DNA of 64,000 nt from a virus (IMGVR_UViG_3300021387_000463:348754-412753); one strand, 5' to 3'. Numbered from the stretch's first letter, positions 7,713 to 46,601 are shown. Notes: generated from the sequence alone by a model not told the origin. Program-made: numbers and translations.

Positions 7713-8585
7713 ATGGCAACTAACGTTAAGTATCTTAAGGAAAATAATTTATATGAGGCACATAAGCACTTTATGCGTCTTAGTGAAGCATATATACCAA
7801 CATCGTTCCCAGAGGAAGAAATCGAGGAAGCTGGTGCTGACCAAAACCAAGACCCTAATGCAATGGGAGGTCAAGACCCTATGATGGGAGGAGACCCTAA
7901 CGCAATGGGTGGTGGTGCTAGCCCTATGGGTGGTGGTATGCCTCAAGACCCAAATGCTATGGGTGGTGCTGACCCTAACGCTATGGGAGGAGACCCAAAT
8001 GCAATGGGAGGCGCAGACCCTATGGCTAGTGCTGACCCAAATTCAGGGGCTGACCCAATGGCTGACCCTATGGGTGGTGATATGGGTGGTGAAGACCCTT
8101 TGGCTGACGCTAGTGGTGATATGAGTGAGGAAGATGGCGAGACAATTGACATCGATGGTTTGACCCAAGCACAAGATAAACTTAATGTTAAGCAGAACCA
8201 TATCGGAAGAGATTTGTCAAAAGTCGATACAAGAATCACATCGTTGATTGATACTATCAATAACCTTTTGTCAAAGGTTGATAGCAACAACAGTGAGATT
8301 GAAGCATTAAAGGCTGAGTTTGAGAAGAGAAATCCAACCCAGACTGAGAAGCTTAACCTACGCTCACTCGATTCTTATCCATTTAATATCAAGCCAAATG
8401 AGTATTGGGATGAAAAGGCAAAGCAAGGTGGATATGAGGCATACTCAGACAATGCAGAGCCTACAACCAAGGAATATACAATCACCAATGATGACGTAGA
8501 TAATCCATCTGATGACATCGCAAAGACATTCTTCAAGATTGATGATGATGATGTCCAGACACTTGACAAACTATTCAATTTCTAA
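7713..8585 (+). CDS. Acidic low-complexity protein with DPNAMGG repeats and a coiled coil (possible scaffold/internal head protein)
   Basis: 290 aa; Gly/Met/Pro/Asp repeat block followed by a heptad region. Confidence 0.7.
   Translation: MATNVKYLKENNLYEAHKHFMRLSEAYIPTSFPEEEIEEAGADQNQDPNAMGGQDPMMGGDPNAMGGGASPMGGGMPQDPNAMGGADPNAMGGDPNAMGGADPMASADPNSGADPMADPMGGDMGGEDPLADASGDMSEEDGETIDIDGLTQAQDKLNVKQNHIGRDLSKVDTRITSLIDTINNLLSKVDSNNSEIEALKAEFEKRNPTQTEKLNLRSLDSYPFNIKPNEYWDEKAKQGGYEAYSDNAEPTTKEYTITNDDVDNPSDDIAKTFFKIDDDDVQTLDKLFNF
7840..8110 (+). repeat. Intragenic imperfect tandem repeat encoding (G/A)DPNAMGG / ADPM
   Basis: About 11 DP-containing units seen directly in the translation. Confidence 0.9.
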
Positions 8586-8824
8586 TGAAAACAGTTAATT
8601 TAAGCGAGGAAGCATACAAGAAACTCATCAATGAGATTGGCTATGGCAATGATGATTTGGGGAATTTACGCAATGAATTAAAATATAGTATTGGTGATGC
8701 CTCACAAGTCATCAGAGACCATTTTATAATGTGCGAAAGACTTAATCAAGAACCTAATCCATATGTGGCTGATATAGCCAAACATATACAAGAAATAGAA
8801 CAATTACTTAATAATTTACAGTAG
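8585..8824 (+). CDS. Small protein with the shared leader motif (MKTVNLSEEAYKKLINE)
   Basis: TAATG coupling to the upstream gene; ends in TAG. Confidence 0.7.
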   Translation: MKTVNLSEEAYKKLINEIGYGNDDLGNLRNELKYSIGDASQVIRDHFIMCERLNQEPNPYVADIAKHIQEIEQLLNNLQ

Positions 8825-8825
8825 T

Positions 8826-9113
8826 ATGAAAAAGATTATAAGACTTACAGAATCAGAACTTAGAAATATAGTTGAGGAGTCAACAAAGAGGATTATCAAA
8901 GAGGCTGAGAGTGGTGGTTGGGTAGTTGATTCATCCGAAGCTCAAGAGGCATATGATTTAGCTGTTCAAGAAATGGGTGAGGAAACCATTAACAGTGCAA
9001 TTGTAAGAAGCCTTGGCGATGAAGTATTGGCACAATGTCTTGCTTATATCTTTAGGCAATATGATTTCAGACAATGGCAAAGTCGTTTTGACAGTCAAGA
9101 TGAAATGATTTAA
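8826..9113 (+). CDS. Small protein with the shared leader motif (MKKIIRLTESELRNIVEESTKRIIKE)
   Basis: 95-aa ORF followed by a hairpin. Confidence 0.75.
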   Translation: MKKIIRLTESELRNIVEESTKRIIKEAESGGWVVDSSEAQEAYDLAVQEMGEETINSAIVRSLGDEVLAQCLAYIFRQYDFRQWQSRFDSQDEMI

Positions 9114-9123
9114 AAGAAATAGG

Positions 9124-9163
9124 ATTCTCCAGTTATGAAAAAAAGTGAATATAACTGGAGAAT
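9124..9163 (+). terminator. Hairpin, probable terminator
   Basis: 13-bp perfect inverted repeat ATTCTCCAGTTAT/ATAACTGGAGAAT. Confidence 0.6.
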
Positions 9164-9176
9164 TTATATCAATTTT

Positions 9177-9210
9177 CTTGTTTTTTTCGATTTTTTTTTA
9201 TATCTTTGCA
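9177..9210 (+). promoter_or_regulatory. Bacteroidota-type promoter for the ssb-tdk-uvsX operon
   Basis: CTTG at 9177 and TATCTTTG at 9201. Confidence 0.75.
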
Positions 9211-9272
9211 ATATAATTTAAGCATGTGTTAGACATGCATTTTAAATAATTTTTTTAATAACAATTTTAATT

Positions 9273-10271
9273 ATGGGTAACAAAAATTTTAGCGTTAACA
9301 TTGATGATGACGCAGTTAGGAATCAGTATGAACAAGAACAGAAGCAACCTGTTAAGAAAACTCAGTTTGACACTAAGAATTATTTACAAGCTAGGCTTGG
9401 GTCAAACGAAGACACAAAGACACTTACAATCAGATTATTGCCATTCTCCCCAGAAGGTGGTAGTCCATTCAAGAAAGTTTTTATGCATACCGTTAAGGTA
9501 AACAAGGAGGTTTCACCTAGTGGGTGGAAGACTTTCGTGTGCCCAACACACAACAAGAAAGATGGCTCTGTAATGGGTGATAAATGTCCATTCTGTGAGA
9601 CATCTGCAAAGGCACGTGAGCTTAAGTCTAAGTCACTTGATGAACCTACAAAGAAAAAGTACGGTGATGTGGAATTCCTTAATCGTGTTAAGGAAATGTG
9701 GATTGTGCGTTGTATAGAGCGTGACCACGAGGAAGATGGAGTTAAGTTTTGGCTCTTCAACAGCTCAAAGAAGAAGGACGGAGTTTATGACAAGATTATG
9801 AACTTGGCAAAGATTCGTTCTGAGGCAGCAGCAAAGAAGGGAAATACCTACAGCATATTCGACCTTAACAATGGACTTGATTTGGTTGTAACCCTCTCAA
9901 GAACCTCAGACAATAAGACAGCAGTTCAGATTATTGATGCTGGTCTTCCTTCGCCACTTTCAGAGAATTTCGACCTTGGCGAGAAGTGGATTCACGACAG
10001 CAAGAAGTGGGATGAGGTATACACTGTTAAGCCTTATGAGTACATGGCAATTATCGCAATGGGTGGTGTTCCAGTATTTAGTAAGGAAGAGAATAAGTAT
10101 GTTGACAAGGAAGAGCTTGATAAACTTAAGGAAGAGGCTGAAAAGCAGAGAATTGACGAAGCTCTCACAGAACCAACAAAAGATTTCTCTGATATTGCAG
10201 AATCTAGCGGTGTGAATATAATTGATGGTAATGACGTTAAAGATGACGATGACGAAGACTTACCATTCTAA
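9273..10271 (+). CDS. T4 gp32-like single-stranded DNA-binding protein
   Basis: 'TIRLLP', H...CP...CPFCE zinc ligands, 'GVKFWLF', 'IFDLNNGLD', acidic tail DDDDEDLPF. Confidence 0.85.
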   Translation: MGNKNFSVNIDDDAVRNQYEQEQKQPVKKTQFDTKNYLQARLGSNEDTKTLTIRLLPFSPEGGSPFKKVFMHTVKVNKEVSPSGWKTFVCPTHNKKDGSVMGDKCPFCETSAKARELKSKSLDEPTKKKYGDVEFLNRVKEMWIVRCIERDHEEDGVKFWLFNSSKKKDGVYDKIMNLAKIRSEAAAKKGNTYSIFDLNNGLDLVVTLSRTSDNKTAVQIIDAGLPSPLSENFDLGEKWIHDSKKWDEVYTVKPYEYMAIIAMGGVPVFSKEENKYVDKEELDKLKEEAEKQRIDEALTEPTKDFSDIAESSGVNIIDGNDVKDDDDEDLPF

Positions 10272-10292
10272 GTAGGCAATGTTACGATTAAT

Positions 10293-10919
10293 ATGAACAA
10301 ACTATTTTATTACTATGGCTCAATGGCTTCAGCTAAAACACTGAGGCTATTGAGCACAGCTTACAACTTTGAGGAAAAAGGTGTACAAATAATGGTACTT
10401 AAGCCATCGTTGGATACAAGAGACGGTGAAGGAGTTATCCGTTCACGTGCTGGTCTTGAGCGTAAGTGTATCATGATTGACAACGAGATTAACTTATACA
10501 AGGCTATAAAGGCATATAAGAACGTTCTAAATGCACAATTTGAAACTCTTAAGTGGGTTATAATCGATGAGTGCCAATTCCTTACCGAAGAACAAGTAGA
10601 CCAACTATCAGATGTTGTAGATTTTTTAGGAATTAATGTAATGTGCTTTGGACTTAGAACAGATTTCCAATCAAAGCTATTTCCAGGTTCTAAACGACTT
10701 TTTGAACTTGCAGATGACATAGAAGAGATTAAGTCAACTTGTGAGTGCGGAGACAGAAAAACCTCAATCAATGCTAGATTTGATGAAAATGGTGAAATTA
10801 TCACTGAAGGTAGTCAAGTCATGATTGGTGGTAATGACAAGTACAGAGCCATTTGCAGAAAATGTTGGAAAGACAAAGTAAGAGATAAATTGTTGAAGGA
10901 AAATGAAACTAAAGCGTGA
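10293..10919 (+). CDS. tdk: Thymidine kinase
   Basis: GSMASAKT P-loop, IDECQFL, FGLRTDF, Zn ligands CEC...CRKC. Confidence 0.95.
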   Translation: MNKLFYYYGSMASAKTLRLLSTAYNFEEKGVQIMVLKPSLDTRDGEGVIRSRAGLERKCIMIDNEINLYKAIKAYKNVLNAQFETLKWVIIDECQFLTEEQVDQLSDVVDFLGINVMCFGLRTDFQSKLFPGSKRLFELADDIEEIKSTCECGDRKTSINARFDENGEIITEGSQVMIGGNDKYRAICRKCWKDKVRDKLLKENETKA

Positions 10920-11112
10920 TTTTAAGGTTGGGACACCCATTCAATTCAAGTGGTACGATAATTGGAAAGATGAGCTTGAAAATCCAACTAATTTTAAGGT
11001 TTTAGAAGGTACTGTTGATTCAAACACAGCAATGGATGAAGTGATAGTATATAACGAGCATGATAGAATGTTTTATGCTGTTAGAAATGAATATATTTTA
11101 AAAGAGTTTTAA
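10903..11112 (+). CDS. Small hypothetical protein (SH3/KOW-like)
   Basis: 69 aa, overlaps the tdk end; 'FKVGTPIQF' start. Confidence 0.6.
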   Translation: MKLKRDFKVGTPIQFKWYDNWKDELENPTNFKVLEGTVDSNTAMDEVIVYNEHDRMFYAVRNEYILKEF

Positions 11113-11115
11113 GTT

Positions 11116-11343
11116 ATGAAATTATTAAGAAAGTATGATATAGGAGATAATATTTCATATACATTTTATGGTGCTAAAAAAAAAGGCAAAATCAGAGAAA
11201 TCCGACACCCATTTCAATACGAAATTGAAGAAGTTTTTGATGATATAACAGTTGATGATTTATTATATGTAATTGAAACAAATGAAAGGGATGAAGATGG
11301 TATAATAGTTGATAATATGATATTAGAATATAATATATTATGA
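11116..11343 (+). CDS. Small hypothetical protein (SH3/KOW-like)
   Basis: 75 aa; 'KYDIGDNISY...KGKIREI'. Confidence 0.6.
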   Translation: MKLLRKYDIGDNISYTFYGAKKKGKIREIRHPFQYEIEEVFDDITVDDLLYVIETNERDEDGIIVDNMILEYNIL

Positions 11344-11368
11344 ATAATTTCGAAAATATTATTAAGTT

Positions 11369-12559
11369 ATGAAGCAGCCAATTAAGAAAAAGGAGTTTAA
11401 GAAGCCAAGTATTGCTAGTTTTAAGGAAAAATATGGTTTAACGATGAAATCAAACAAGGATTTGGTAAAGTCTGTTGCAGATAAGCCTACAGATTTTATT
11501 CCACTTCCAGAAGCATTTGCAGATGCAATTAAACTTCCAGGTATACCAAAGGGTTATCTTACAATTGTGACTGGATGGTCAAACACTGGTAAATCAACCA
11601 TTAAAAATTGTCTTATCGCAAGTTGTATTAATAATGGAATACTTCCAGTTATATATGAGACAGAGAACAACTTTGACTTTCAATATGCGATTGATTGTGG
11701 CATGAAAGCAACACCTATTTATGATGATGTAGAGGTTGAGGATGTTGATGAAGAAACTGGAGAGATTACAACCCATACAGAGAAAAGAATTATTAATTAT
11801 GATGGAGAATTCTTATATTTTGATAATAAGATTCTAGCTGAAATGTATGGTAATCGTGATTATTCAACTGGAAAAGAATCTAAAACTAAACGTAAGGAAG
11901 CAGTTCTTGAGGACATTGCATACTCTATAAATGATTTGTTAGATGCACAAGATAGAGGTGAAATCCAACAGCCAATGTGCTTTATTTGGGACTCTATTGG
12001 TTCTATTCAGTCGTTTAAGTCACTTGAGAGCAAGAGTGGTAACAATATGTTTGATGCTGGTGCAATTTCGCAATCATTCAGCAACATTATCAACAATAGA
12101 ATTCCATCTTCAAAGAAGGTTAGTGAAGAGTTTACAAACACATTCTTCTGTGTTAACAAGATTTGGAATGATTCAATGAATTCAATGGGTGGTGTACCTT
12201 CAATCGAGCTTAAGGGTGGTAAGACATTCTTCTATGGTGCAAGATTGATTATCCATCTTGGAGGTATCGGTAAGGCTGCTACAAAGAAACTTGATGCAAC
12301 TGCAAAGGGTAGCAAGTATCAGTATGGTATCACAACCAAGATAAGAACAACTAAAAACCAGTTACCAACACCTTGGAATGTAACATACGAAGGTGAAATG
12401 TCTTGTGTACATAATGGTCTATTGAATCCAAAGGCACTAGAGGAATACAAGAAAACCTACATGAAGGATATTCTTGCAAAGATTGAAGAGACAAGTGGTA
12501 AGAAACTTGACTTAACAGAAAATGATGTACAATTCACTGAAGAAGATTCTGAAGAGTAA
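11369..12559 (+). CDS. UvsX/RecA-like recombinase
   Basis: Walker A GWSNTGKST, 'IYETE', Walker B FIWDSIGS, 'KGGKTFFY'. Confidence 0.9.
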   Translation: MKQPIKKKEFKKPSIASFKEKYGLTMKSNKDLVKSVADKPTDFIPLPEAFADAIKLPGIPKGYLTIVTGWSNTGKSTIKNCLIASCINNGILPVIYETENNFDFQYAIDCGMKATPIYDDVEVEDVDEETGEITTHTEKRIINYDGEFLYFDNKILAEMYGNRDYSTGKESKTKRKEAVLEDIAYSINDLLDAQDRGEIQQPMCFIWDSIGSIQSFKSLESKSGNNMFDAGAISQSFSNIINNRIPSSKKVSEEFTNTFFCVNKIWNDSMNSMGGVPSIELKGGKTFFYGARLIIHLGGIGKAATKKLDATAKGSKYQYGITTKIRTTKNQLPTPWNVTYEGEMSCVHNGLLNPKALEEYKKTYMKDILAKIEETSGKKLDLTENDVQFTEEDSEE

Positions 12560-12720
12560 TGAGTTTTGAATATACAGTTAAATATAGACCACATCGCATT
12601 GTAGATTATATTATTACAAATGTTAGGCATAATGAAGCTGACGATTCAGTTGTAATAGAATATAGCAATGGGGAATCAATAAAACTTAGTTTAGCAGATT
12701 TAATTGGACATGAAGCTTGA
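12559..12720 (+). CDS. Small ORF, 53 aa (MSFEYTVKYRPHRIVDY...)
   Basis: Translated by hand; TAATG coupling with the recombinase gene. Confidence 0.5.
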   Translation: MSFEYTVKYRPHRIVDYIITNVRHNEADDSVVIEYSNGESIKLSLADLIGHEA

Positions 12721-12847
12721 ACATGTTGTAAAGAAAGTCTATGAACCTATACATAGAGGTGGATGGGAATTTACATTTACGCCACCACAATGGATTATAG
12801 ATTGGTGTGAAGATAAGGCATTTATTGAAACAGTAGAATACATATGA
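12710..12847 (+). CDS. Small ORF, 45 aa (MKLEHVVKKVYEPIHRGGWEF...)
   Basis: Translated by hand; overlaps both neighbours. Confidence 0.45.
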   Translation: MKLEHVVKKVYEPIHRGGWEFTFTPPQWIIDWCEDKAFIETVEYI

Positions 12848-12921
12848 GTTTAGAAACTGTAGATAGACTATTTGAAGATGATTGGTTGTGGGAATGGGTT
12901 GTGGTACATGACCGATATTAA
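12844..12921 (+). CDS. Micro-ORF, 25 aa (MSLETVDRLFEDDWLWEWVVVHDRY)
   Basis: ATGA coupling; ends just before the terminator. Confidence 0.35.
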   Translation: MSLETVDRLFEDDWLWEWVVVHDRY

Positions 12922-12927
12922 ATAAAG

Positions 12928-12961
12928 AATAGGGGAGAAAGAGATTTCTCCCTTATTTTTT
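12928..12961 (+). terminator. Rho-independent terminator
   Basis: AATAGGGGAGAAA-GAGA-TTTCTCCCTTATT followed by a T run. Confidence 0.75.
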
Positions 12962-12992
12962 GGAATTTTAACATTTTTTTTATATCTTTGCA
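12959..12992 (+). promoter_or_regulatory. Bacteroidota-type promoter
   Basis: TTTG at 12959 and TATCTTTG at 12983; nearly identical to the 6368 copy. Confidence 0.8.
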
Positions 12993-13005
12993 AAAAGGTG
13001 TTAAA

Positions 13006-13314
13006 ATGAAAGATATGATACGTGAATATAAAGGAGAAATGTTTAGAAAATTTGCGTTGAAGCTTAAAAAAGAAGGGCTTTGGCAAAAGTTTATTATTCT
13101 TGAATATTATTTTAGATTTTACAATAATCTAGATAATAACTTAATAACAATATATAAATATCTCAAAAACGAAAATAGTGATAACGTAATATTATTAGAT
13201 TGGGTTAAAGGAAAAAAGAAAGGTAGATTTGGTTCATATTTGGATAGTATGCTGTTTTCTGAATATGACAGATACATATTGCTGAGTGATTTTTTTAAAC
13301 ATTATAAAGTATAA
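13006..13314 (+). CDS. Hypothetical protein
   Basis: ORF track 12988..13314; first ATG after the promoter is at 13006. Confidence 0.6.
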   Translation: MKDMIREYKGEMFRKFALKLKKEGLWQKFIILEYYFRFYNNLDNNLITIYKYLKNENSDNVILLDWVKGKKKGRFGSYLDSMLFSEYDRYILLSDFFKHYKV

Positions 13315-13317
13315 AAT

Positions 13318-13881
13318 ATGACAGACGAGCAAAGAGAAAAAAACCTAGAGCTTTATGTTAAGAAGCTAGGAAAACTTGGTATTGATACAAGTACCTTGAT
13401 TGAAAAGTATGGAGAACTTTTAAAGAATGGTTCTTTCACACAAACAAATGAGTTTGGAAACGCTTACAACGGCTCACTGCTTGAGATTATTTTGAAGGTG
13501 CTTACACCTTATGCAGTGAAAGTAAATGAGTTGCTTCCAGAGGATAGAAGGGTTGATAAGCCTACTCTCGTAAAGGTATGTCTTCTTCACCAAATCGCAA
13601 AGGCAGTTAGATTGATTCCTAACGATAACCAATGGGAGGTTGAGAAGCGTGGCTTTGTTTACAAATACGATAATAACTTACCTTCAATCAGAACTGGTCT
13701 ACACTCCGTTTCAATGTGTTTTGAGTGTGGTATACCTTTGACAACTGAAGATATTGAGGCAATGACAGTTAATGATAGAGACCTATCGGATGACCAAGCA
13801 CGTTGGCACTCAAGTATCATGGCAACAATTGTAAGACAAGCAAGCGAACTAACATATCTTCAAATCAACGATAAGAAATGA
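13318..13881 (+). CDS. HD-domain-like protein with degenerate metal ligands
   Basis: 'NAYNGSLLE...VCLLHQIAKA' matches the HD fold pattern (AYxGGLxEH...LLHDxGK) but reads HQ. Confidence 0.65.
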   Translation: MTDEQREKNLELYVKKLGKLGIDTSTLIEKYGELLKNGSFTQTNEFGNAYNGSLLEIILKVLTPYAVKVNELLPEDRRVDKPTLVKVCLLHQIAKAVRLIPNDNQWEVEKRGFVYKYDNNLPSIRTGLHSVSMCFECGIPLTTEDIEAMTVNDRDLSDDQARWHSSIMATIVRQASELTYLQINDKK

Positions 13882-14474
13882 AATTTTGGAGAAAAAAAGA
13901 AAAGGAAGTACACGTAAAGATTAAAAGGCTACGTGATGATGCAGTAATGCCTACATATGCCCATGAGGGTGATGTTGGTATGGATTTAACAGCAGTCAGT
14001 GTTGAATATGACCAAGAGCATGATATGTACATTTATCACACTGGTCTTGCTGTAGAAACTGATAAGGGATATGGAATACTTTTATTTCCAAGAAGTTCAA
14101 ATAGGAAAACAGACGCATATCTTTGCAACCATGTTGGTATTGTGGATTCATTCATATATCGAGGTGAAATGATGCTATGCTTCAAGAATAGAGACTCACT
14201 TAGGACACTTGCTCTTGAGGCTAGATTCCTTGAATTCTTAAATAATCTCAAGTTTAAGGATATTGATAGGCTTACTCTTGATGAAGCTAAGAAGAATTCA
14301 AGTGTTACTTGGATGGATACAATGAGGAATCCAATGGCATTTGCCCCATATAAGGTTGGTGAAAGGATTGCACAAATGGTAGTAGTACCATACCCTAAAG
14401 TTAAGCTAACTGAGGTAAATCAGCTTTCAGTGACAGAAAGGGGTGAAGGAGGATTTGGTTCAACTGGTAAATAA
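13878..14474 (+). CDS. dut: Trimeric dUTPase with an internal insertion
   Basis: GMDL, PRSS, GIVDS.YRGE, ERIAQ and RGEGGFGSTG motifs. Confidence 0.95.
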   Translation: MKFWRKKEKEVHVKIKRLRDDAVMPTYAHEGDVGMDLTAVSVEYDQEHDMYIYHTGLAVETDKGYGILLFPRSSNRKTDAYLCNHVGIVDSFIYRGEMMLCFKNRDSLRTLALEARFLEFLNNLKFKDIDRLTLDEAKKNSSVTWMDTMRNPMAFAPYKVGERIAQMVVVPYPKVKLTEVNQLSVTERGEGGFGSTGK

Positions 14475-14483
14475 TTCAATGTT

Positions 14484-16197: not shown

Positions 16198-16199
16198 TA

Positions 16200-16238
16200 A
16201 AAAAAGTGAATAAGAGTTTGTTTCTTATTCACTTTTTT
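16200..16238 (+). terminator. Terminator hairpin, possibly overlapping a weak promoter
   Basis: 16-bp inverted repeat AAAAAAGTGAATAAGA/TCTTATTCACTTTTTT. Confidence 0.7.
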
Positions 16239-16257
16239 GTATTTTTTAAATAAAACT

Positions 16258-16947: not shown

Positions 16948-16971
16948 TTTGGCATGATTTTTGCAATTAAT

Positions 16972-34505: not shown

Positions 34506-34506
34506 G

Positions 34507-36544: not shown

Positions 36545-36552
36545 TATTTATA
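36545..36552 (+). promoter_or_regulatory. Putative late promoter TATTTATA
   Basis: 20 nt upstream of the kinase ATG. Confidence 0.65.
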
Positions 36553-36572
36553 AGAAATATTGATATTTAACG

Positions 36573-37322
36573 ATGAAATTAATTAAAATAAACGAATCTC
36601 AGCAAAAAAGACTGTTCGAAGCGTATCAAGAGGGATTTTCGTTTGACCATTTATCCATATTAGGTAACGATGCTTTTTCTGATGAGGAATCTAGCAGCAA
36701 ACTACAGTTCGAATATTGTAGGAAGTGGCTAGGAGAACCAGTTGCGCAAGGTTCTTCTAGATGTATCTTTATGTTGAGTGACAATCTTGTTTTGAAGATT
36801 GCAAATGGCAAGTATGAAGCTGGCAAGGCTCAGAATCGTCTTGAGTGTCAACTATATGAGGAAACAAAATCACCATTGTTGGTTAGAATATTCGGAAACG
36901 ATGATAATTATACGTATATAATCTGTGAAAATGTAATTCCAGCACAGCCAATAGACTTTGAAAAGATTATCGACATACCATTCTATAATAGGTACTATAA
37001 CCAGAGGAATTCTGAATACAGTCAATATTTCGAGAATCCAAGGGCTAATTATGAGAAAGTACCATATGATGTGTATGACATAGTATGCTATCTTGAGGCC
37101 AACTATTCCGTTGGAGAAGGATATTACAGCAAGGATATAGAAATGTATCTTAGAAAGAATCCTTGGTTGAAGAAGCTTGAGGAATTTATAATGAACACAC
37201 AGATTGGCGATTTAACTAAACCTGAGAATTACGGAGTTGTAAATAGAGACGGAAATCCAATGATTGTGGTTCTTGACGCAGGAATGAATTTAGAAAATTG
37301 GGAGGGATATTATCGTGGCTAA
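36573..37322 (+). CDS. Protein-kinase-like enzyme with the shared N-terminal leader
   Basis: Gly loop AQGSSR, VLKIA lysine, QNRLE alphaC glutamate, catalytic loop DLTKPEN, DAG at the DFG position. Confidence 0.8.
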   Translation: MKLIKINESQQKRLFEAYQEGFSFDHLSILGNDAFSDEESSSKLQFEYCRKWLGEPVAQGSSRCIFMLSDNLVLKIANGKYEAGKAQNRLECQLYEETKSPLLVRIFGNDDNYTYIICENVIPAQPIDFEKIIDIPFYNRYYNQRNSEYSQYFENPRANYEKVPYDVYDIVCYLEANYSVGEGYYSKDIEMYLRKNPWLKKLEEFIMNTQIGDLTKPENYGVVNRDGNPMIVVLDAGMNLENWEGYYRG

Positions 37323-37857: not shown

Positions 37858-37860
37858 AAG

Positions 37861-37900
37861 AAAGAATGGAGACAGAACAAATCTGTCTCCATTTCTTTTT
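37861..37900. terminator. Bidirectional terminator
   Basis: AATGGAGACAGA/TCTGTCTCCATT flanked by A and T runs. Confidence 0.8.
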
Positions 37901-37901
37901 A

Positions 37902-39116: not shown

Positions 39117-39140
39117 ATTTTAATATATTAAAACAATTTA

Positions 39141-39605: not shown

Positions 39606-39665
39606 ATTTTTTTCTATAAAAGATAAGGAAAATTGAGGGAAAATAAACAAATAAAAACAAAAAAA

Positions 39666-39692
39666 AAAGAGTGTTATCCGTTAACACTCTTT
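39666..39692 (-). terminator. Terminator of the minus-strand late operon
   Basis: AAAGAGTGTTA/TAACACTCTTT with a long T run on the minus strand. Confidence 0.7.
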
Positions 39693-40378: not shown

Positions 40379-41097
40379 TATCTTCTGTTGTTATTTAAAT
40401 AATCATTTTCATCGAAATCTACTTCGTCAGAATCATAACCCTTATCTGTTACTGGTCCCTTCTGTGGCTCTGTCAAAGCCTTTTCAGCATCGTTAAGGTC
40501 GAATAGACGCCAGAAATCTTCACCCTTCTTTGGAGTATTCTCTATATTCTGCCTAATCATGTCGTACTTCCTACTATTAGGTTGAGAGGTATAGACATTT
40601 TTCTTCCATTGCTGTGTGATTCTTGGCTGTTGTACTGGGCCTTTTGTTGCATTTTTTTGTTGACCAACTTTTACGTCATTTTGGAATTGCAATAGCTGTC
40701 TTTCCGCTGGGCTGATAAAGTCATCGAATTTGGCATTATCATAGAATGTGCCCATTGTCTTATCTCCAGTGAGATTGTATTCACCAAATGAACTTGGTGG
40801 TGCTTCAAAGAATTTCTTATTTTTCATTGGTGTCCAAGATGTGATTCTATCAAGTCTGAAGAACTTCCACTTCGGAGCACCCCTACGAGTTCCACCACCT
40901 TCTTGAAACGCTCTAACAACAGGATAACCTTTCTTTGTTGTACCTATTGCAAAAGGTTTAATGACACGACTACCCTTTGGATTTCCAGCACCATCACCTT
41001 GTCCATCATCATATCTGATACGGACTTGGTATTTGTTTCGGATTGCATCAAGAACAGCATCAAACGCTACTTCTTCATTTAAAAGGCAGTTTGCCAT
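40378..41097 (-). CDS. WYL-domain protein
   Basis: 'AIRNKYQVRIRY...RVIKPFAIG...VVRAFQ...WKFFRLDRI'. Confidence 0.8.
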   Translation of the reverse strand: MANCLLNEEVAFDAVLDAIRNKYQVRIRYDDGQGDGAGNPKGSRVIKPFAIGTTKKGYPVVRAFQEGGGTRRGAPKWKFFRLDRITSWTPMKNKKFFEAPPSSFGEYNLTGDKTMGTFYDNAKFDDFISPAERQLLQFQNDVKVGQQKNATKGPVQQPRITQQWKKNVYTSQPNSRKYDMIRQNIENTPKKGEDFWRLFDLNDAEKALTEPQKGPVTDKGYDSDEVDFDENDYLNNNRR

Positions 41098-41106
41098 GTC
41101 TTAATA

Positions 41107-41448
41107 TTAATCTTTTTCGTTATATGGGTTATAAGTAACCTTCATATTCATTTCATCCAAACGACTCTGAGGTGTGACATCCATATTTTGCTTTGCATAT
41201 AGCTCATTGAGTTGGTTCTGATATGTATTATCGACAATCAATGATTTCAATGCTTCCAACTTTCTCTGCATCTTTCTGTCTGCGAAGAATGCGTTGGTCT
41301 CAGCAATTGCTTGTCTTGTCTCTTCCTCGTTTAGTTCCTTCTTTACATTAGCCTTTTTGATAGAATCTACCCTCTTGTCAACAAGTTCCATTCCGATTAG
41401 GATGTTCTTTGCTAGTTTATGTAGTCTATCGTTATCATAACTTCTCAT
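41107..41448 (-). CDS. Hypothetical helical protein
   Basis: 113-aa ORF within the operon. Confidence 0.7.
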   Translation of the reverse strand: MRSYDNDRLHKLAKNILIGMELVDKRVDSIKKANVKKELNEEETRQAIAETNAFFADRKMQRKLEALKSLIVDNTYQNQLNELYAKQNMDVTPQSRLDEMNMKVTYNPYNEKD

Positions 41449-41474
41449 AGATTAGTTTATTTAAATTGAATGTA

Positions 41475-41897
41475 TTAAGTGGTAGTTTTCTGTCCAATCT
41501 GCTGGCCGAAGAAATACTGACCGTCATTTACATTCTGAGTTGTGTCTACAAGATTTGCACCGTAAGGCACTTCCTTGTTATACATTGAGATAGCCAATGC
41601 TCTCTCACGTCCACTGATTCCATTTCTACCTTTTATATCGTAGTAACCACCACCATTTTCAGTATCGAAATTACTGTAGTTAATCTGGGTTGTTGGTTTT
41701 GTACAATCTGGTAAGAAGTGAGTGTGACCACCGTGTCCTGTACCCTTACCTTGAGCATCACCATCGCTCATTGCATCTGGGTGAGTTGGACCGTATTGAT
41801 TCTCGATGTTATAGTCACTACGAGTAATCTCTTGGTGTCTCTCTTCCATGCCTCTCTTTTCAAGACAAGTCTGTCCGTTCTGAACTGTATTTGCCAT
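41475..41897 (-). CDS. Hypothetical late protein (Gly/Asn-rich)
   Basis: 140 aa; TATTTATA at 41932-41939 upstream. Confidence 0.75.
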   Translation of the reverse strand: MANTVQNGQTCLEKRGMEERHQEITRSDYNIENQYGPTHPDAMSDGDAQGKGTGHGGHTHFLPDCTKPTTQINYSNFDTENGGGYYDIKGRNGISGRERALAISMYNKEVPYGANLVDTTQNVNDGQYFFGQQIGQKTTT

Positions 41898-41955
41898 ATT
41901 CTTTATAAAATTTAAGTAATTTATTTTCTATTATAAATAGTTATTCCTAATATTT

Positions 41956-42435
41956 TTAGCCCCATCTAGTTGCTTTTGGCATCATATCTGTCATTATGTC
42001 TGATACTGATTGCAATCGTTCTGTAATTTCCTTTGGGGCATTTCTTTCATTAATCACCTTTTGTTTCTCTACCTCTTTCTTGAATTTCTTTTCCTCTTTA
42101 GCCTTTCTCTTAGCCTCTGCCTTTGCTTCTTGTTTCTCTTGCTTTATCCTAGCAGTCTCGATTTGGTCTTGAACACTCTGGTCAGTGCTTCCAACTGGGA
42201 ATTCAGTCTGTACCATATACTCAGCATCTACCAATGCCTTTGTGTATTGCAAGTCAACCTTCCATTCATTTCTATATAGATGTTCTTTCCTTGCTTCAAT
42301 ACCAAATTTTTCAAGACAAGTCTGTTTTCCACTTGAGTTAACATTTGAAGATGGCTGCTGTGGCTTTGTACCACCCATTATATTCTCAATAGTGTTACCA
42401 ATCTTCTTTAAAGTATTATCTATAGTATTAGCCAT
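41956..42435 (-). CDS. Hypothetical protein sharing an N-terminal motif with 41475..41897
   Basis: MANT...QTCLEKxGxExR in both proteins. Confidence 0.7.
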   Translation of the reverse strand: MANTIDNTLKKIGNTIENIMGGTKPQQPSSNVNSSGKQTCLEKFGIEARKEHLYRNEWKVDLQYTKALVDAEYMVQTEFPVGSTDQSVQDQIETARIKQEKQEAKAEAKRKAKEEKKFKKEVEKQKVINERNAPKEITERLQSVSDIMTDMMPKATRWG

Positions 42436-43825
42436 TCTTCAATTTGATTAATTGCTTTTCAGTTATATACACCTTTTTGCCGTTTCTCTTAATTTCTTCA
42501 GCAATCTGATTTAATGCCTTACTTCCACCAACAACGAATATTGAAGCCATATCACCTCTCTGGTGGTAAACATCCAACGCTTTATTAACTATTACCAATA
42601 CTTTTTCAGGTGGTAAATCCTCGTCATATTCTGAAAGTATTCTCTCCAATGGTTCTATACCAAAATCAGAGAATGCATCACTACCGTCAGGCATCATCAT
42701 CCAATCATAAAATCCAATTAAGTCAAGGAAGTTCATAGAATCAACTACCCAATATAATTTATTAATGCTGTAATCTATTTCAATTTTTCCGTGTAATCTA
42801 GATTTTTTATTGAATTCTTCTATGTATCGCTCAACATCACCATATACTTGTTCGAACTTAGCTTTTTGTCTTGCAAGGTCTTGCTGTGCTACAGTCCTAT
42901 TAACATCATCTTGAGACATCCAAGGGAAATATGTTTGTCCATATTTGTCAACAGCTTCGTTTAATGCGTTAAACTCATCATTATATAGTTTCATTACGTC
43001 ATTTGGTGATAATTCTACCTTAATTTCATCACTGCTAACTGATTCTACCTCTCTAGAGTTATTGAAATATGACATTACAAAATCTTCAAATTCTTCCTCT
43101 GGAAACCATTGACTATGACCTGCAATACTAGTATTAGCCTTTAAAATTGCAGTATTTTTCATAATAATACCAATCCATTGATAAATGTATCTTGCTGGGA
43201 ATTTAACCAATTTTCCATATTTAGTGAACTCGCTTAACGCTTTTGCATACATATCTGGATTTATCAGTACCCCCCAATTTTGTTTTCCTTCTGGATTATC
43301 AAGGAAACTATTAAATACATAAATGGGACTATATTCTTCTAAATAATCCCAAAATGCACTAGATTCAACATCTTCTTTTATTATCCTATTCTCAGTCTTT
43401 ATTTTGGATGTAGGCACACTTTGCTTGGCTATATTGACGTTGCTAGGTTTAACACTTGCGGTAGGCTTTGGAGGCTCTATTGGAGATACCTCTGCTTGGC
43501 TTCTAGCCCTCTCTACAGTTTTCTTGTAGAAATTGTAAGCCTTTTGTCCACCTTGCGTTATGTCGTTAGGATTCATTCTCTGCATTCTCTTCTTTGCATC
43601 CTCAACGCTAACATAGCTTGTGTTCTGTTCCTTACCATTCACGCTGTCATCACCCTTCTTGTTGTAATTCTTGGTTGATGCAAGGCTCTTAAGGTTCTTG
43701 AGGCTATTCTTAGGCATAACCTTCTCTAGCGCATTGTACCATGCACTATAATACTGCCTATCCTTCAATGGAACAGGTGCTTTCCTTCTAGTTACCTTCT
43801 GTGAATCCTCTAAAAATAATGCCAT
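42428..43825 (-). CDS. Multi-domain late protein, possibly processed internal head protein
   Basis: 465 aa; FLED, IIKED and LNEA sites; C-terminal KKVYITEKQL motif. Confidence 0.7.
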   Translation of the reverse strand: MALFLEDSQKVTRRKAPVPLKDRQYYSAWYNALEKVMPKNSLKNLKSLASTKNYNKKGDDSVNGKEQNTSYVSVEDAKKRMQRMNPNDITQGGQKAYNFYKKTVERARSQAEVSPIEPPKPTASVKPSNVNIAKQSVPTSKIKTENRIIKEDVESSAFWDYLEEYSPIYVFNSFLDNPEGKQNWGVLINPDMYAKALSEFTKYGKLVKFPARYIYQWIGIIMKNTAILKANTSIAGHSQWFPEEEFEDFVMSYFNNSREVESVSSDEIKVELSPNDVMKLYNDEFNALNEAVDKYGQTYFPWMSQDDVNRTVAQQDLARQKAKFEQVYGDVERYIEEFNKKSRLHGKIEIDYSINKLYWVVDSMNFLDLIGFYDWMMMPDGSDAFSDFGIEPLERILSEYDEDLPPEKVLVIVNKALDVYHQRGDMASIFVVGGSKALNQIAEEIKRNGKKVYITEKQLIKLKNG

Positions 43826-43827
43826 TG

Positions 43828-44076
43828 TTAAATTGTATTTGATGATTTCCTACCGCCAACAGCACCCCATTGCTGTGGTGACTGTGCGTTTGCGAACTTT
43901 TCAGTATCCATTGGATTAGCCTTTTTAGGGCTTCTATCCTTATCAGTTATTGTTGGCTGAAGCTCTACCTTATCCAAACCATCATACTCTGGAATTGTAC
44001 TTGTTCCAAAATCTTGGTCTGTAACGCTCTCAAACAGCCTACTATACTGAGATTCATTCAAATTAATTATTTTCAT
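43828..44076 (-). CDS. Small protein with the shared leader (MKIINLNESQYSRLFE)
   Basis: 82 aa; first gene after the bidirectional late promoter. Confidence 0.75.
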   Translation of the reverse strand: MKIINLNESQYSRLFESVTDQDFGTSTIPEYDGLDKVELQPTITDKDRSPKKANPMDTEKFANAQSPQQWGAVGGRKSSNTI

Positions 44077-44096
44077 AATTCCATTCTTTTATTTGC

Positions 44097-44110
44097 TATA
44101 AATATTTATA
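44097..44110. promoter_or_regulatory. Palindromic bidirectional late promoter TATAAATATTTATA
   Basis: 14-bp perfect palindrome between divergent genes. Confidence 0.7.
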
Positions 44111-44134
44111 TAAGACAAATAATATAAAGGAATA

Positions 44135-46120
44135 ATGGCAAATTTAAAAGTAAATAACTATCATAATCTGAAATTAAGGATTAACGGAGACGAATATTGG
44201 GACTTCTTTGTTAATAAGGATTCTTATGGTTCATTTAAGATTAATGGACTATATGATAATTGCCTTATATCCTATATAGACCTTTGTGACAGTGAATGTA
44301 CTGATGGCTCAGAATGGGTTTACAGTAAAAGCGGTTACACATGGGACAAATCATTGGCACTTGGTTATACCTTATATAATATAACATATACTGGAGTTGA
44401 TAATGGTCTTTTCACATTCCGTAAGGATAGAATTACCAACAAGGACTTCCTAGAGATATTCCAAAAGAACAAGCTTAAGATTGAGGAAAACGACTATAGA
44501 TTAAAACTCCATGCAGTAAGTGGAAATACTTTACAATATGAGTATCCTCTACATATCGAAGAATGTTATACAAAGCTTAATGGTGGCTTCTTCCAAGGCT
44601 TCTTCAAAACAGAATGTGACAAGTACCAAATACTTCCTTCATCATTCGAGCATGGCGATACACTTAACTTCGAATTCACATTGAAAAAGTGTGACTTGGA
44701 GAAGGAATCTGATAAGACATTGAATGACAAGTATCCAGAGAATAAGGGTATATTCTTCTATATCGGTACAAGAGCAGAGAATAAGTGGATTTATATGTAC
44801 GATGAGAAGGATGAGGATGGCCTTGAGGAATGTTATGAATTGGGTGTTGATGATTTCGTTGAAGATGGTGAGATAGACAAGAAAGACCATATCATTGGAA
44901 ACTTCTATAATCCAAATCCTGATTTTGATGGATATGACCCATTTGAACTAGGTGATTACACCAATTACAATTACTATGATGAAGATTTGTATGCTGACGA
45001 TTATTGTGATTGGGATGATATGTATGACTATCTTGAGATAGAAACTGAGAAGAAGCCTAAGACTATAGATGAAAATGCAAGACATTCAACCCTTACATGG
45101 TGCTGTGGGGAGATACAAGAAAAGGATTACATATTGAAGCCTTGGTTTCATGGCTGTGGGTGTCCAATATCATACAAGAGAATGCCAAAAACAGATAAAG
45201 ACCCATTTGACCCAAATCCATTGAAAGGATGTACTGAATTTGGTGATGACTATATATTCGACAATGGAGAGGTAATCGGACTTGATGAAGCTATAGATTA
45301 TATTGAGGCTGAACTTGATATTTCAGACTTCGAATATGAAACAGATAACGGTTTTAGACTTTCTGAAGGAAATCAATATTACTTCTATACCGATAACAAG
45401 TTCTTGTTCTTTGACAGAACCAAGACTGGTTTCACTGTTTCAAATTGGGTTGAAGGAACACAAATCATGTTCTCTGGACGTAGAAGCAAGTTTAAGGGGA
45501 ATTTATTCATCCTAATGAATCGCACAAAGACTGGTTACACCGTTAATACTATTGATGAGCTTCGTGACCAATCAGCAAACGAATATAACCCTTATAATGA
45601 CATCTATAATAACGCTCTAGCTTTTAGAATTACAGATAAGGGAGAAATAGGTTATAGAATGCTAACAATTGACTGTGAGAAGGAAGGTAGGGATAAGACA
45701 AACATCATCGAGGGTTATTCATTTGAGAATGTAATACTAGATTGCGAATGGACAACTGTTAATGTTAGAATTACGTTCACATTCGGAAAAATGAAAATCA
45801 TGTTTTATGTTAATGGTAAGTTGGTTTACATAACAAAAGACCTTCCAATGCTTAACCTAAAGGCTCTTAATGAAATATATGACAAGCAAGAGGGTGTTCC
45901 TTATAATATTTCACTTGGTGGCGGTACACAAGGTCTTGCAGAGACAATACAACCAAACTATATGCTCAATCCAACAAGGGTTTATCCTCTTGAGAAGGCA
46001 TTTGCTGGTAGTTTCATCGGTTATATCTCTTCATTCAAAATTTATAACTGCTTCATGGAACAGATGATAATAGAACATAATTACAAATACGAAAATAACA
46101 AATTAAAAATAGACAACTAA
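44135..46120 (+). CDS. Probable structural protein with a LamG/ConA-like beta-sandwich and acidic Cys-rich insertion
   Basis: 'GIFFYIGTRAENK', 'IMFYVNGKLV', 'ISLGGG', 'FIGYISSFKIYN'. Confidence 0.6.
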   Translation: MANLKVNNYHNLKLRINGDEYWDFFVNKDSYGSFKINGLYDNCLISYIDLCDSECTDGSEWVYSKSGYTWDKSLALGYTLYNITYTGVDNGLFTFRKDRITNKDFLEIFQKNKLKIEENDYRLKLHAVSGNTLQYEYPLHIEECYTKLNGGFFQGFFKTECDKYQILPSSFEHGDTLNFEFTLKKCDLEKESDKTLNDKYPENKGIFFYIGTRAENKWIYMYDEKDEDGLEECYELGVDDFVEDGEIDKKDHIIGNFYNPNPDFDGYDPFELGDYTNYNYYDEDLYADDYCDWDDMYDYLEIETEKKPKTIDENARHSTLTWCCGEIQEKDYILKPWFHGCGCPISYKRMPKTDKDPFDPNPLKGCTEFGDDYIFDNGEVIGLDEAIDYIEAELDISDFEYETDNGFRLSEGNQYYFYTDNKFLFFDRTKTGFTVSNWVEGTQIMFSGRRSKFKGNLFILMNRTKTGYTVNTIDELRDQSANEYNPYNDIYNNALAFRITDKGEIGYRMLTIDCEKEGRDKTNIIEGYSFENVILDCEWTTVNVRITFTFGKMKIMFYVNGKLVYITKDLPMLNLKALNEIYDKQEGVPYNISLGGGTQGLAETIQPNYMLNPTRVYPLEKAFAGSFIGYISSFKIYNCFMEQMIIEHNYKYENNKLKIDN

Positions 46121-46121
46121 T

Positions 46122-46601
46122 ATGCCAAGCAAAAGTAAATCACAACAGAGATTCTTCGGTATGGTGGATGCGTACAAAAAAGGTGAACTGAAGAATCCAA
46201 GCAGCAAGATAAAGAAAGCTGCAAAGGGAATGTCAATGAGTGATGTCAAGGATTTTGCTGAAACAAAACATAAGGGACTTCCAGAGAAGGTTGAGGAAAA
46301 TATCATAAGATTGACTGAATCAGACCTTCACAATATTGTAAATGAAGCTGTATATAAGATATTAAAAGAGAATAACTTCATAAGCAACAAATCGTTAGGT
46401 GCTATGGAGGATGCATTTCTTCCAAAGAAAGGTATTGACATTTTAAGTAAAGGTGTTAAGGTTTTACGTGGCGATATTCGTCCAGACGCTTATTATACTG
46501 AAGGTCATTACACAAACAGAAATACAGATTTGTTAGCCGATGCAATAATAGAATATCCTGATGGAAAAAGACATATACTTATGAGAAAAAGGAGAGCTTG
46601 A
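46122..46601 (+). CDS. DUF3008-like domain followed by the shared IIRLTESDL motif
   Basis: 'MPSKSKSQQRFFG...DFAETKHKGLPEKV', then 'NIIRLTESDLHNIVNEAV'. Confidence 0.7.
   Translation: MPSKSKSQQRFFGMVDAYKKGELKNPSSKIKKAAKGMSMSDVKDFAETKHKGLPEKVEENIIRLTESDLHNIVNEAVYKILKENNFISNKSLGAMEDAFLPKKGIDILSKGVKVLRGDIRPDAYYTEGHYTNRNTDLLADAIIEYPDGKRHILMRKRRA

What the first reader, a model, noticed from the sequence alone, without database searches (positions are those of the whole stretch)
8585..46601. Shared short leader motif on unrelated late proteins: candidate head-packaging address system
Seen: six otherwise unrelated proteins carry one motif. 8585 MKTVNLSEEAYKKLINE; 8826 MKKIIRLTESELRNIVEESTKRIIKE; 36573 MKLIKINESQQKRLFE; 44076(-) MKIINLNESQYSRLFE; 46122 internal NIIRLTESDLHNIVNEAVYKILKE; 43825(-) C-terminal KKVYITEKQLIKL. 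The consensus is K-(I/V)-x-(L/I)-(T/N/S)-E-S followed by an amphipathic helix ending (L/I)xE. All lie in TATTTATA-driven operons. Established: T4 internal proteins use an N-terminal capsid-targeting sequence that prohead protease gp21 removes at (I/L)-x-E. Inference: this is a portable tag that loads interchangeable cargo (kinase, DUF3008 domain, small helical proteins) into the head for ejection into the host.
Basis: partly seen in the sequence, partly recalled or inferred. Interest (0 to 1): 0.8.

Follow-up and report, generated by a model that had tools for sequence, protein, structure and literature searches.

The report
Shared leader peptide on phage proteins
A 413-kb T4-like phage of rumen-type Bacteroidales starts about sixteen unrelated small late proteins with one conserved leader peptide that ends in the cut motif of its head protease; this is most likely a larger version of phage T4's "load into the head, then clip" tag, but neither loading nor clipping has been observed.

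Summary
The motif is real, but the six cases are unequal. Two window proteins carry a 26-residue module, MKKIIRLTESDLHNIVKESVxRILKE: 8826 at its N-terminus and 46122 internally, after a DUF3008 domain. Three (8585, 36573, 44076-) carry a related 16-17-residue short form. The C-terminal case (43825-) is not supported.

The genome has 10 strong long-form copies and about 5 short ones. N-terminal matches number 12 against 0.2 expected. Tails are unrelated, and conservation is at protein level, not DNA level.

A profile of the module hits 6,867 protein clusters. These are essentially all metagenomic phage sequences, and every near-complete carrier genome encodes a T4-type prohead protease. The two most conserved islands are L-T-E (residues 7-9) and L/I-x-E (24-26), which match that protease's motif. 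Conservation collapses straight after E26.

New here: L/I-x-E is specifically depleted in the cargo tails (O/E 0.82, against 1.3-1.4 in neighbouring proteins), while L/I-x-D, -K and -Q are enriched. Cargo turns over quickly between sister genomes. A few cargoes elsewhere are a SAM lyase and a NUDIX hydrolase.

Best reading, at about 0.55: a capsid-targeting propeptide. The scan already reported this leader from three other windows of this genome. Packaging and cleavage remain untested.

The parts
8826..8903 (+). Long leader module (26 aa, MKKIIRLTESELRNIVEESTKRIIKE) at the N-terminus of a 95-aa protein (gene 8826-9113)
   Evidence: HMM E 1e-13 to 3e-16. The gene is absent from the syntenic site in sister genome G002, so it is an indel cassette.
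46293..46370 (+). Long leader module placed internally (residues 58-83) in the 159-aa protein 46122-46601, between a DUF3008 domain and a tail
   Evidence: HMM E about 1e-14 to 1e-17. DUF3008 (PF11450) E 3.4e-7 at residues 4-57. G006 has module plus the same tail without DUF3008. G002 has DUF3008 plus module with a different tail.
8585..8635 (+). Short leader (17 aa, MKTVNLSEEAYKKLINE) on a 79-aa protein (8585-8824)
   Evidence: Weakest of the three short forms. Its only ortholog is in G002, where the leader matches at 14/17 and the tail is 62% identical.
36573..36620 (+). Short leader (16 aa, MKLIKINESQQKRLFE) on a 249-aa protein-kinase-like protein (36573-37322)
   Evidence: The leader is the most conserved part across 72 homologs. 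In the AF2 model (mean pLDDT 88) residues 1-20 score only 45-58 and are not packed on the core. Foldseek hits are all kinase-like folds. K75, E91, N219 and D235 are invariant and D213 is nearly invariant.
44029..44076 (-). Short leader (16 aa, MKIINLNESQYSRLFE) on an 82-aa protein (43828-44076, minus strand)
   Evidence: Found at E 1e-7 by an HMM built only from the kinase family's N-termini. The tail is unrelated to the kinase.
42428..43825 (-). 465-aa protein whose C-terminal KKVYITEKQLIKL was listed as a sixth member; not supported
   Evidence: No match to either leader HMM. The C-terminus is conserved in the G002 ortholog, but so is the whole protein at 72%. No Pfam or PHROG family.
7433..7440 (+). 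TATTTATA late-type promoter box ahead of the operon 7460-9113, which contains the 8585 and 8826 genes
   Evidence: The extended consensus is (A/G)ATATTTATA...AA.
36545..36552 (+). TATTTATA box 21 nt upstream of the kinase-like gene
44097..44110 (.). Overlapping divergent TATTTATA boxes. The minus-strand box (44097-44104) drives 44076(-) and the 465-aa gene. The plus-strand box (44103-44110) drives 44135-46120 and 46122-46601.

Best explanation
The leader is a capsid (prohead-core) targeting propeptide.

Proposed steps:
1. Late in infection, about sixteen small, hydrophilic, mostly acidic proteins are made. Each carries the leader, which is a short extended stretch, an N-cap (TES) and a basic amphipathic helix.
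2. The helix docks them onto the assembling scaffold core of the T4-type prohead.
3. The Peptidase_S77 prohead protease then cuts after Glu at L-T-E (residue 9) and/or (L/I)-x-E (residue 26).
4. This frees a mature cargo that stays in the head and is probably ejected with the DNA.

The short 16-17-residue form found at 8585, 36573 and 44076(-) is a truncated relative with the same two L/I-x-E islands.

Shown here: the module exists, sits at N-termini, is under protein-level selection and ends in an L/I-x-E motif. Also shown: the protease gene, avoidance of the motif in the tails, late-type promoter boxes, and modular exchange and turnover of cargo.

Inferred, not shown: binding to the core, packaging, cleavage and ejection.
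For: 1. The genome has 10 strong long-form copies and about 5 short ones. N-terminal matches number 12 against 0.2 expected.

2. In an unbiased sample of 114 tagged ORFs from IMG/VR and MAG loci, 100 modules start the ORF. About 9 of the 15 'internal' copies begin with Met and are likely mis-called starts.

3. A logo of 339 modules gives L7 89%, T8 88%, E9 99%, L/I24 91% and E26 94%. No residue exceeds 13% at P1'. gp21 cuts after L/I-x-E (PMC9026906).

4. A Peptidase_S77 gene lies at genome 298458-299153(-). One tagged gene follows it 4 nt downstream and another lies beside it. All 5 of 5 near-complete carrier genomes encode this protease.

5. The capsid protein has [LI]xE at residues 23, 44, 51 and 60, with IYE|ATAS just before the Pfam Gp23 match begins.

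6. [LI]xE is depleted in the tails: O/E 0.72 (z -4.7), 0.77 (z -2.7) and 0.43 in three samples. For 212 non-redundant proteins it is 0.82 (95% bootstrap 0.71-0.93). In neighbouring proteins O/E is 1.27-1.41. In the same tails, [LI]xD, [LI]xK, [LI]xQ and Ex[LI] are 1.2-1.4.

7. Five of ten long-form tails have no homolog in sister genome G002. Leaders are 77-96% identical, while tails range from 31% to 97%.

8. The same tail occurs with and without DUF3008 upstream of the module.

9. TATTTATA boxes also precede the terminase, portal, sheath and scaffold-like genes.

10. Only 1 of 114 tagged ORFs has a hydrophobic segment, against 28% of neighbours.

11. Leader-tagged cargoes elsewhere include a SAM lyase (E 1e-11) and a NUDIX hydrolase (E 7e-20).

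12. The module is virtually absent from 185,579 cellular genomes. It gives 7 hits, all in MAG contigs, five of them from Bacteroidales/Prevotellaceae bins, two of them rumen (RUG) and one reindeer.
Against: - There are no virion proteomics and no cultured relative. GenBank phages gave no match.
- The leader is 26 aa, against 10 aa in T4, and has no sequence similarity to the T4 tag.
- Cargo tails are acidic (median -5.4 charge per 100 aa), unlike the basic T4 internal proteins.
- Some proteins carry 2-3 copies, including internal and C-terminal ones. After cleavage such a copy would stay attached to the cargo.
- In the kinase-like family, conservation continues past the proposed cut site.
- The depletion of L/I-x-E is partial: 204 sites remain.
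- Co-occurrence with the protease is within one phage clade, so it is not independent evidence.
- The scaffold-like protein shows no significant match to the module.
- AF2 of a two-copy protein was uninformative (pLDDT 46).
Confidence: 0.55

Rival explanations
1. The leader is a docking or oligomerisation helix for some other shared partner, unrelated to the capsid interior. The partner could be a chaperone, a late assembly factor, a tail or baseplate site, or a common host target. Its L/I-x-E motifs would then be structural (N-cap and helix end) rather than cleavage sites.
For: The helix is an idealised amphipathic helix whose only PDB profile matches are de novo helical repeats. Copies occur internally and at C-termini, and 2-3 times per protein, in part of the family. 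The kinase family conserves residues beyond the supposed cut.
Against: This does not explain why [LI]xE, but not [LI]xD/K/Q, is depleted in the tails. It does not explain why conservation collapses exactly after E26. It also leaves unexplained the tight linkage of two tagged genes to the protease gene.
Confidence: 0.2
2. The tagged proteins are accessory prohead-core or scaffold components (analogues of T4 gp67/gp68). They are targeted and clipped by the protease but serve head assembly and are discarded, rather than being delivered as effectors.
For: Two tagged genes flank the protease gene in the head-morphogenesis cluster. The tails are acidic and compositionally simple, like scaffold proteins.
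Against: Scaffold proteins are cut into many pieces, and the 497-aa scaffold-like protein has 10 [LI]xE sites. The tagged tails instead avoid the site. Half the cargo set differs between sister genomes, which is unlike essential assembly parts. Some cargoes elsewhere are enzymes: SAM lyase, NUDIX and a kinase-like fold.
Confidence: 0.12
3. The conserved 5' segment is mainly a recombination handle that lets gene cassettes be swapped. The peptide would have no function of its own.
For: Tails and upstream domains are exchanged exactly at the module. Tagged genes behave as indels.
Against: Leader copies are only 66% identical in DNA, the median shared exact run is 8 nt, and codon position 3 is 41% identical against 79% for positions 1+2. 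This means the peptide, not the DNA, is conserved. The profile finds it in 6,867 clusters with the same residue preferences.
Confidence: 0.05
4. The resemblance is chance, or ordinary paralogy of a small gene family.
For: The short-form matches are short, and one claimed member (the C-terminus of the 465-aa protein) is indeed not significant.
Against: N-terminal matches number 12 against 0.2 expected. HMM E-values reach 1e-18. The tails show no detectable similarity. There are thousands of carriers.
Confidence: 0.02

Closest known systems
Capsid-targeting sequence (CTS) of phage T4 internal proteins IPI, IPII, IPIII and Alt, removed by prohead protease gp21 (PMC9026906; PMC3012670)
   Same: - An N-terminal tag on unrelated, fast-changing late proteins.
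- It ends in L/I-x-E.
- The genome encodes a gp21-family protease and a gp23-type capsid protein.
- Cargo sets differ between related phages.
- Some cargo looks like anti-defence enzymes.
   Different: - The leader is 26 aa (or 16-17 aa), against 10 aa in T4, with no sequence similarity.
- It carries two L/I-x-E islands.
- There are about 16 tagged genes per genome, against 4 in T4.
- Cargo is mostly acidic, not basic.
- Occasional internal, C-terminal or repeated copies occur.
- Nothing has been shown experimentally.
Propeptides of ejection and inner-body proteins of giant phages phiKZ, 201phi2-1 and SPN3US, cleaved at S/A-x-E by a diverged gp21 homolog (PMC9026906; PMC5694885; PMC7411985)
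   Same: A jumbo phage in which many head-internal proteins are processed after Glu by a T4-related protease.
   Different: Those propeptides are not one shared, portable sequence. Here a single conserved module is reused, and the motif is L/I-x-E rather than S/A-x-E.
Encapsulin cargo-loading peptides and the P22 scaffold-domain fusions used to load capsids (my own knowledge, not tested here)
   Same: A short helical peptide acts as a position-tolerant address for the interior of an HK97-fold shell.
   Different: Those tags are usually C-terminal and are not removed by a protease. There is no sequence relation.
Polymorphic effector systems with a conserved N-terminal trafficking domain and variable C-terminal payloads (my own knowledge)
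   Same: The architecture and evolutionary pattern match: a constant N-terminal address, hypervariable tails and cassette-like turnover.
   Different: The delivery route here would be the phage head, not a secretion system.

Membership tests
T4-type capsid-targeting propeptide (CTS) system | The tag lies at the N-terminus of otherwise unrelated proteins | tested here: met
   In the genome, 12 N-terminal matches against 0.2 expected. In loci, 100 of 115 modules start the ORF and about 9 more begin with Met. Tails are unrelated. Exception: window 46122 carries the module internally.
T4-type capsid-targeting propeptide (CTS) system | The tag ends in the prohead protease motif L/I-x-E | tested here: met
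   L/I24 91% and E26 94%, with conservation lost at P1'. The short forms end in LFE or INE.
T4-type capsid-targeting propeptide (CTS) system | The genome encodes a gp21-family (Peptidase_S77) prohead protease and a gp23-type capsid protein | tested here: met
   PF03420 at 85 bits and PF07068 at 214 bits. PHROG head maturation protease E 4e-43. All 5 of 5 complete carrier genomes are positive.
T4-type capsid-targeting propeptide (CTS) system | Late expression together with head genes | tested here: inconclusive
   The TATTTATA box is shared with the terminase, portal, sheath and scaffold-like genes and precedes tagged genes or their operons. There are no transcript data.
T4-type capsid-targeting propeptide (CTS) system | The propeptide is cleaved off by the protease | not testable with these tools
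   Only indirect support: specific depletion of [LI]xE in the tails, O/E 0.82 (0.71-0.93) against 1.3-1.4 in neighbours.
T4-type capsid-targeting propeptide (CTS) system | The cargo is physically inside the head and is ejected | not testable with these tools
   No virion proteome and no cultured relative.
T4-type capsid-targeting propeptide (CTS) system | Sequence homology to the T4 CTS (10 residues) | tested here: not met
   tblastn of a two-module protein found nothing in 50,697 GenBank phage records, T4-type phages included. The length is 26 aa against 10. The relation is therefore analogy or an independent variant, not membership by descent.
Protein-kinase-like fold (window 36573-37322) | Bilobal kinase fold with a Gly-rich loop, a Lys-Glu pair, a catalytic Asp/Asn loop and a DFG-like Asp | tested here: met
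   AF2 pLDDT 88. All top Foldseek PDB hits are kinase-like folds (MTR kinase, APH(2''), eukaryotic-type kinases), with prob up to 0.99 but TM only about 0.33. K75, E91, N219 and D235 are invariant and D213 is nearly invariant. There is no Pfam hit, so the family assignment is by fold only.
DUF3008 (PF11450) (window 46122-46601) | Match to the Pfam model above its gathering score | tested here: met
   30.8 bits against a cut-off of 24, at residues 4-57.

The most novel reading that the evidence does not exclude
A clade of 300-410-kb T4-like phages of rumen or gut Bacteroidales runs a large, open-ended protein-delivery system. One 26-residue leader with two protease sites would load thousands of different, rapidly exchanged, mostly unknown cargo families into the head for injection. 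At least 6,867 clusters at 50% identity carry the leader, including SAM lyase, NUDIX and kinase-like enzymes. That would make it the largest known reservoir of pre-packaged phage effectors, and a ready-made packaging tag for engineering Bacteroidales phages.
Probability: 0.4. Interest if true: 0.8.

Novelty: new variant of a known kind. Interest (0 to 1): 0.62.

Why it matters
If the leader is a packaging tag, a simple sequence search would list the injected-protein repertoire of a whole group of uncultured megaphages. Most of these proteins have no known family, so they are candidate anti-defence and host-takeover factors.

It would also show that T4's capsid-targeting principle scales to dozens of cargoes, and it would supply a portable tag for loading proteins into such phages.

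The motif-avoidance signal is a way to infer exposure to a protease from sequence alone, and it can be applied to other phage groups.

Tried and rejected
- **DNA- or RNA-level repeat: rejected.** Codon position 3 identity is 41%, against 79% for positions 1+2.
- **Known domain: none found.** Pfam and PHROG give no family for the module. A PDB profile search returned only de novo helical repeats. ESM Atlas gave only unnamed viral clusters.
- **Literature:** a full-text search for the motif strings gave 0 papers.
- **GenBank phages:** tblastn of a two-module protein gave no match.
- **Megablast** of the region against phages gave no match.
- **Scaffold mimicry: not supported.** The scaffold-like N-terminus resembles the module by eye (7 of 26 residues) but is not significant with a 339-sequence HMM.
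- **Module self-pairing: uninformative.** AF2 of a natural two-copy protein gave pLDDT 46.
- **PF23780 search** of whole records with the genome search found nothing anywhere, including controls. The SAM-lyase cargo was located instead by a direct Pfam scan.
- **Multi-copy bias:** the 2-3-copy proteins dominate the top only because scores add up. In the unbiased sample, 113 of 114 proteins have one copy.


Full report
**Setting**

The window is the last 64 kb of a single 412,753-bp virus record, with 36% G+C.

The genome encodes a Peptidase_S77 (T4 gp21-type) prohead protease at 298458-299153(-). It also encodes a gp23-type major capsid protein at 300892-302931, a terminase, a portal and a tail sheath.

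The capsid protein is at most 40% identical to those of cultured T4-superfamily phages such as Flavobacterium, Microcystis and Rhodothermus phages. This is therefore a distant T4-like jumbo phage.

**The observation**

All six quoted peptides are present. An HMM scan of the whole genome shows what they belong to.

- A 26-residue module, MKKIIRLTESDLHNIVKESVxRILKE, occurs ten times at E below 1e-9. Nine copies are at an N-terminus and one is internal, at window 46293-46370 behind a DUF3008 domain. Two weaker internal copies lie in a 649-aa protein.
- Window 8826 is a typical long-form member.
- Window 8585, 36573 and 44076(-) carry a shorter relative (16-17 aa). It shares the first half, I-(K/R)-(I/L)-(N/T)-E-S, and ends in L-F-E or I-N-E.
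- An HMM made only from the N-termini of homologues of the 36573 protein recovers 44076(-) at E 1e-7. It also recovers similar leaders, including long/short hybrids, on many unrelated tails in other contigs.
- The C-terminal case in the 465-aa protein matches nothing.

The signal is well above chance.

- A loose pattern occurs 12 times within the first seven residues of 596 proteins, against 0.2 expected.
- The tails are unrelated.
- Leader copies differ freely at synonymous sites: 41% identity at codon position 3 against 79% at positions 1+2, with a median exact run of 8 nt.

**Distribution**

A profile of the module hits 6,867 representatives (clusters at 50% identity) at E of 0.001 or better, and 841 at 1e-10, among 1.8 billion proteins.

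- The cluster members I looked up come only from metagenomes.
- IMG/VR gave more than 174 loci, many on contigs of 225-412 kb.
- In 185,579 cellular genomes there are only 7 hits. All are MAG contigs, five of them in Bacteroidales/Prevotellaceae bins (rumen RUG and reindeer among them), and they include a 408-kb contig that is evidently a phage.
- All five near-complete carrier genomes encode the S77 protease. The smaller carriers are estimated to be fragments.
- GenBank phages have no match, and no paper contains the motif.

The top of the profile list is rich in proteins with 2-3 copies, some internal or C-terminal. This is a scoring bias. In an unbiased set of 114 tagged ORFs from the fetched loci, 113 have one copy and 100 modules start the ORF. 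About nine of the 15 'internal' copies begin with Met, so they are probably mis-called starts.

**Anatomy of the leader**

A logo of 339 distinct modules shows two most-conserved islands: L7-T8-E9 (89%, 88%, 99%) and L/I24-x-E26 (91%, 94%). No residue exceeds 13% immediately after E26, and the next positions are Gly/Asp-rich.

Both islands match the T4 gp21 specificity, which is cleavage after Glu in L/I-x-E (PMC9026906).

The capsid protein of this phage has four such sites in its first 60 residues. The last is IYE|ATAS, nine residues before the Pfam Gp23 match starts. This agrees with a T4-like propeptide.

The leader has a median net charge of +2, and AF2 models residues 9-26 as a helix.

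**A new indirect test of cleavage**

If the tails meet an L/I-x-E protease, they should avoid that motif. They do.

| Sample | [LI]xE observed/expected in tails |
|---|---|
| Global representatives | 0.72 (z -4.7) |
| Loci ORFs | 0.77 (z -2.7) |
| This genome | 0.43 (4 observed, 9.2 expected) |
| 212 non-redundant proteins | 0.82 (bootstrap 95% 0.71-0.93) |

Neighbouring proteins in the loci sample and the other 80-300-aa proteins of this genome give 1.27-1.41. In the same tails, [LI]xD, [LI]xK, [LI]xQ and Ex[LI] are enriched at 1.2-1.4, and [LI]xxE is neutral.

The depletion is therefore specific to Glu at +2. Low helicity or segregated composition does not explain it. It is partial, not absolute.

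**Modularity and turnover**

Sister genome G002 (412,435 bp) has orthologs that are 60-97% identical.

- Five of the ten long-form tails of this genome have no homolog anywhere in G002, even by tblastn.
- The window's 8826 gene is a clean indel.
- G002 carries tagged genes that are absent here.
- Where orthologs exist, leaders are 77-96% identical, while tails range from 31% to 97%.

The DUF3008 protein shows exchange exactly at the module. G002 has the same DUF3008 and module with a different tail. G006 has the module at the N-terminus with the same tail and no DUF3008.

**Expression**

An (A/G)ATATTTATA box lies in the sense orientation within 70 nt upstream of 42 of 596 genes, against 11 for its reverse complement. 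It precedes the terminase, portal, sheath, fibre-like and scaffold-like genes.

Seven of the eight tagged genes that have their own upstream spacer carry it, five exactly and two with one mismatch, at -14 to -38. The background is 7% for exact boxes and 13% for relaxed ones. The other tagged genes sit inside operons headed by such a box. The window boxes are at 7433, 36545, 44103 and, on the minus strand, 44097-44104.

**Cargo**

- Tagged proteins are small, with a median of 137 aa.
- They are hydrophilic: 1 of 114 has a hydrophobic segment, against 28% of neighbours.
- They are acidic and rich in Gly, Asp, Gln, Asn and Tyr.
- Of the 120 scanned, only five have a Pfam match at E 0.001 or better. 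These include a NUDIX hydrolase (L066:3001-3765), an S-adenosylmethionine lyase (L088:7499-8341) and DUF3008.
- The 249-aa protein at window 36573 folds confidently (pLDDT 88) into a protein-kinase-like fold with the catalytic Lys, Glu, Asp, Asn and Asp conserved.
- Its first 20 residues are the most conserved part of the family, yet they are modelled with pLDDT 45-58 and are not packed on the core. That is what a trans-acting leader would look like. However, conservation there continues past the proposed cut into AYxEGFSF.

**Interpretation**

The best reading, at about 0.55, is a capsid-targeting propeptide of the T4 kind. In T4 the first 10 residues of IPIII suffice for packaging, and gp21 removes them (PMC9026906; PMC3012670). 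T-even phages are already known to place CTS-like leaders on diverse internal proteins. That makes this a new, longer and much more widely used variant, not a new principle.

Rivals and my estimates:
- another docking function, 0.2
- discarded core components, 0.12
- a recombination handle, 0.05
- chance or paralogy, 0.02

Motif avoidance in the tails argues against the first two rivals, and the codon-position pattern argues against the third.

Nothing here shows packaging, cleavage or ejection.

**Earlier notes**

The scan's earlier notes show that the same leader was reported from three other windows of this genome, with the same reading. I used those notes only as leads, and I tested the leader count, the protease and the capsid protein independently.

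Noticed in passing
L088:7499-8341 (DGVD01000011.1, 251,867-bp contig in a 'Bacteroidales bacterium UBA4293' bin): A leader-tagged protein carries an S-adenosylmethionine lyase domain (PF23780, E 1.2e-11, residues 102-194). That is the enzyme class phage T3 uses against restriction. Here it may be pre-packaged.
   Followed up: partly
L066:3001-3765: A leader-tagged NUDIX hydrolase (PF00293, E 7e-20) with an intact NUDIX box.
   Followed up: partly
L093 (ONBK01000001.1, 408,014 bp, 'Bacteroidales RUG153 scaffold_1') and L088: Contigs filed as bacterial MAG sequence carry the phage leader and have megaphage size. They are probably phage genomes binned as bacteria.
   Followed up: no
window 44097-44110: Two TATTTATA boxes overlap back to back (TATAAATATTTATA) between divergent genes, forming a compact bidirectional late-type promoter. 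The box is the reverse complement of T4's late promoter TATAAATA, yet it is used in the sense orientation (42 genes against 11).
   Followed up: partly
genome 300892-302931 (outside the window): The capsid protein has four [LI]xE sites in its first 60 residues but only six in the remaining 619. This fits a protease-targeted N-terminal propeptide.
   Followed up: partly
genome 248539-250488 (outside the window): A 649-aa protein with a Dps-like N-terminal region (weak PHROG match, 'starvation-inducible transcriptional regulator', presumably this protein) has two internal leader-like modules at residues 353-378 and 516-541. It may be a natural polyprotein of tagged units.
   Followed up: no
window 9273-12559: The small late-promoter operon holding the 8585 and 8826 genes sits directly upstream of DNA-metabolism genes. 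The 11369 gene matches UvsX-like recombinase. I read the 10293 gene as thymidine-kinase-like and the 9273 gene as a possible ssDNA-binding protein from their sequences only, not tested. Tagged cassettes are thus scattered outside the structural block.
   Followed up: no
genome 7651-8436; G002 114357-114731; protein P0002: A few tagged cargoes contain a Gly/Ala-rich hydrophobic stretch (for example KGAALGGMMAMS and GLGAALGLGAAG), which looks like a glycine zipper. Their function is unknown.
   Followed up: no
window 1-6366: A 2,121-aa open frame runs off the window start. It was not examined.
   Followed up: no
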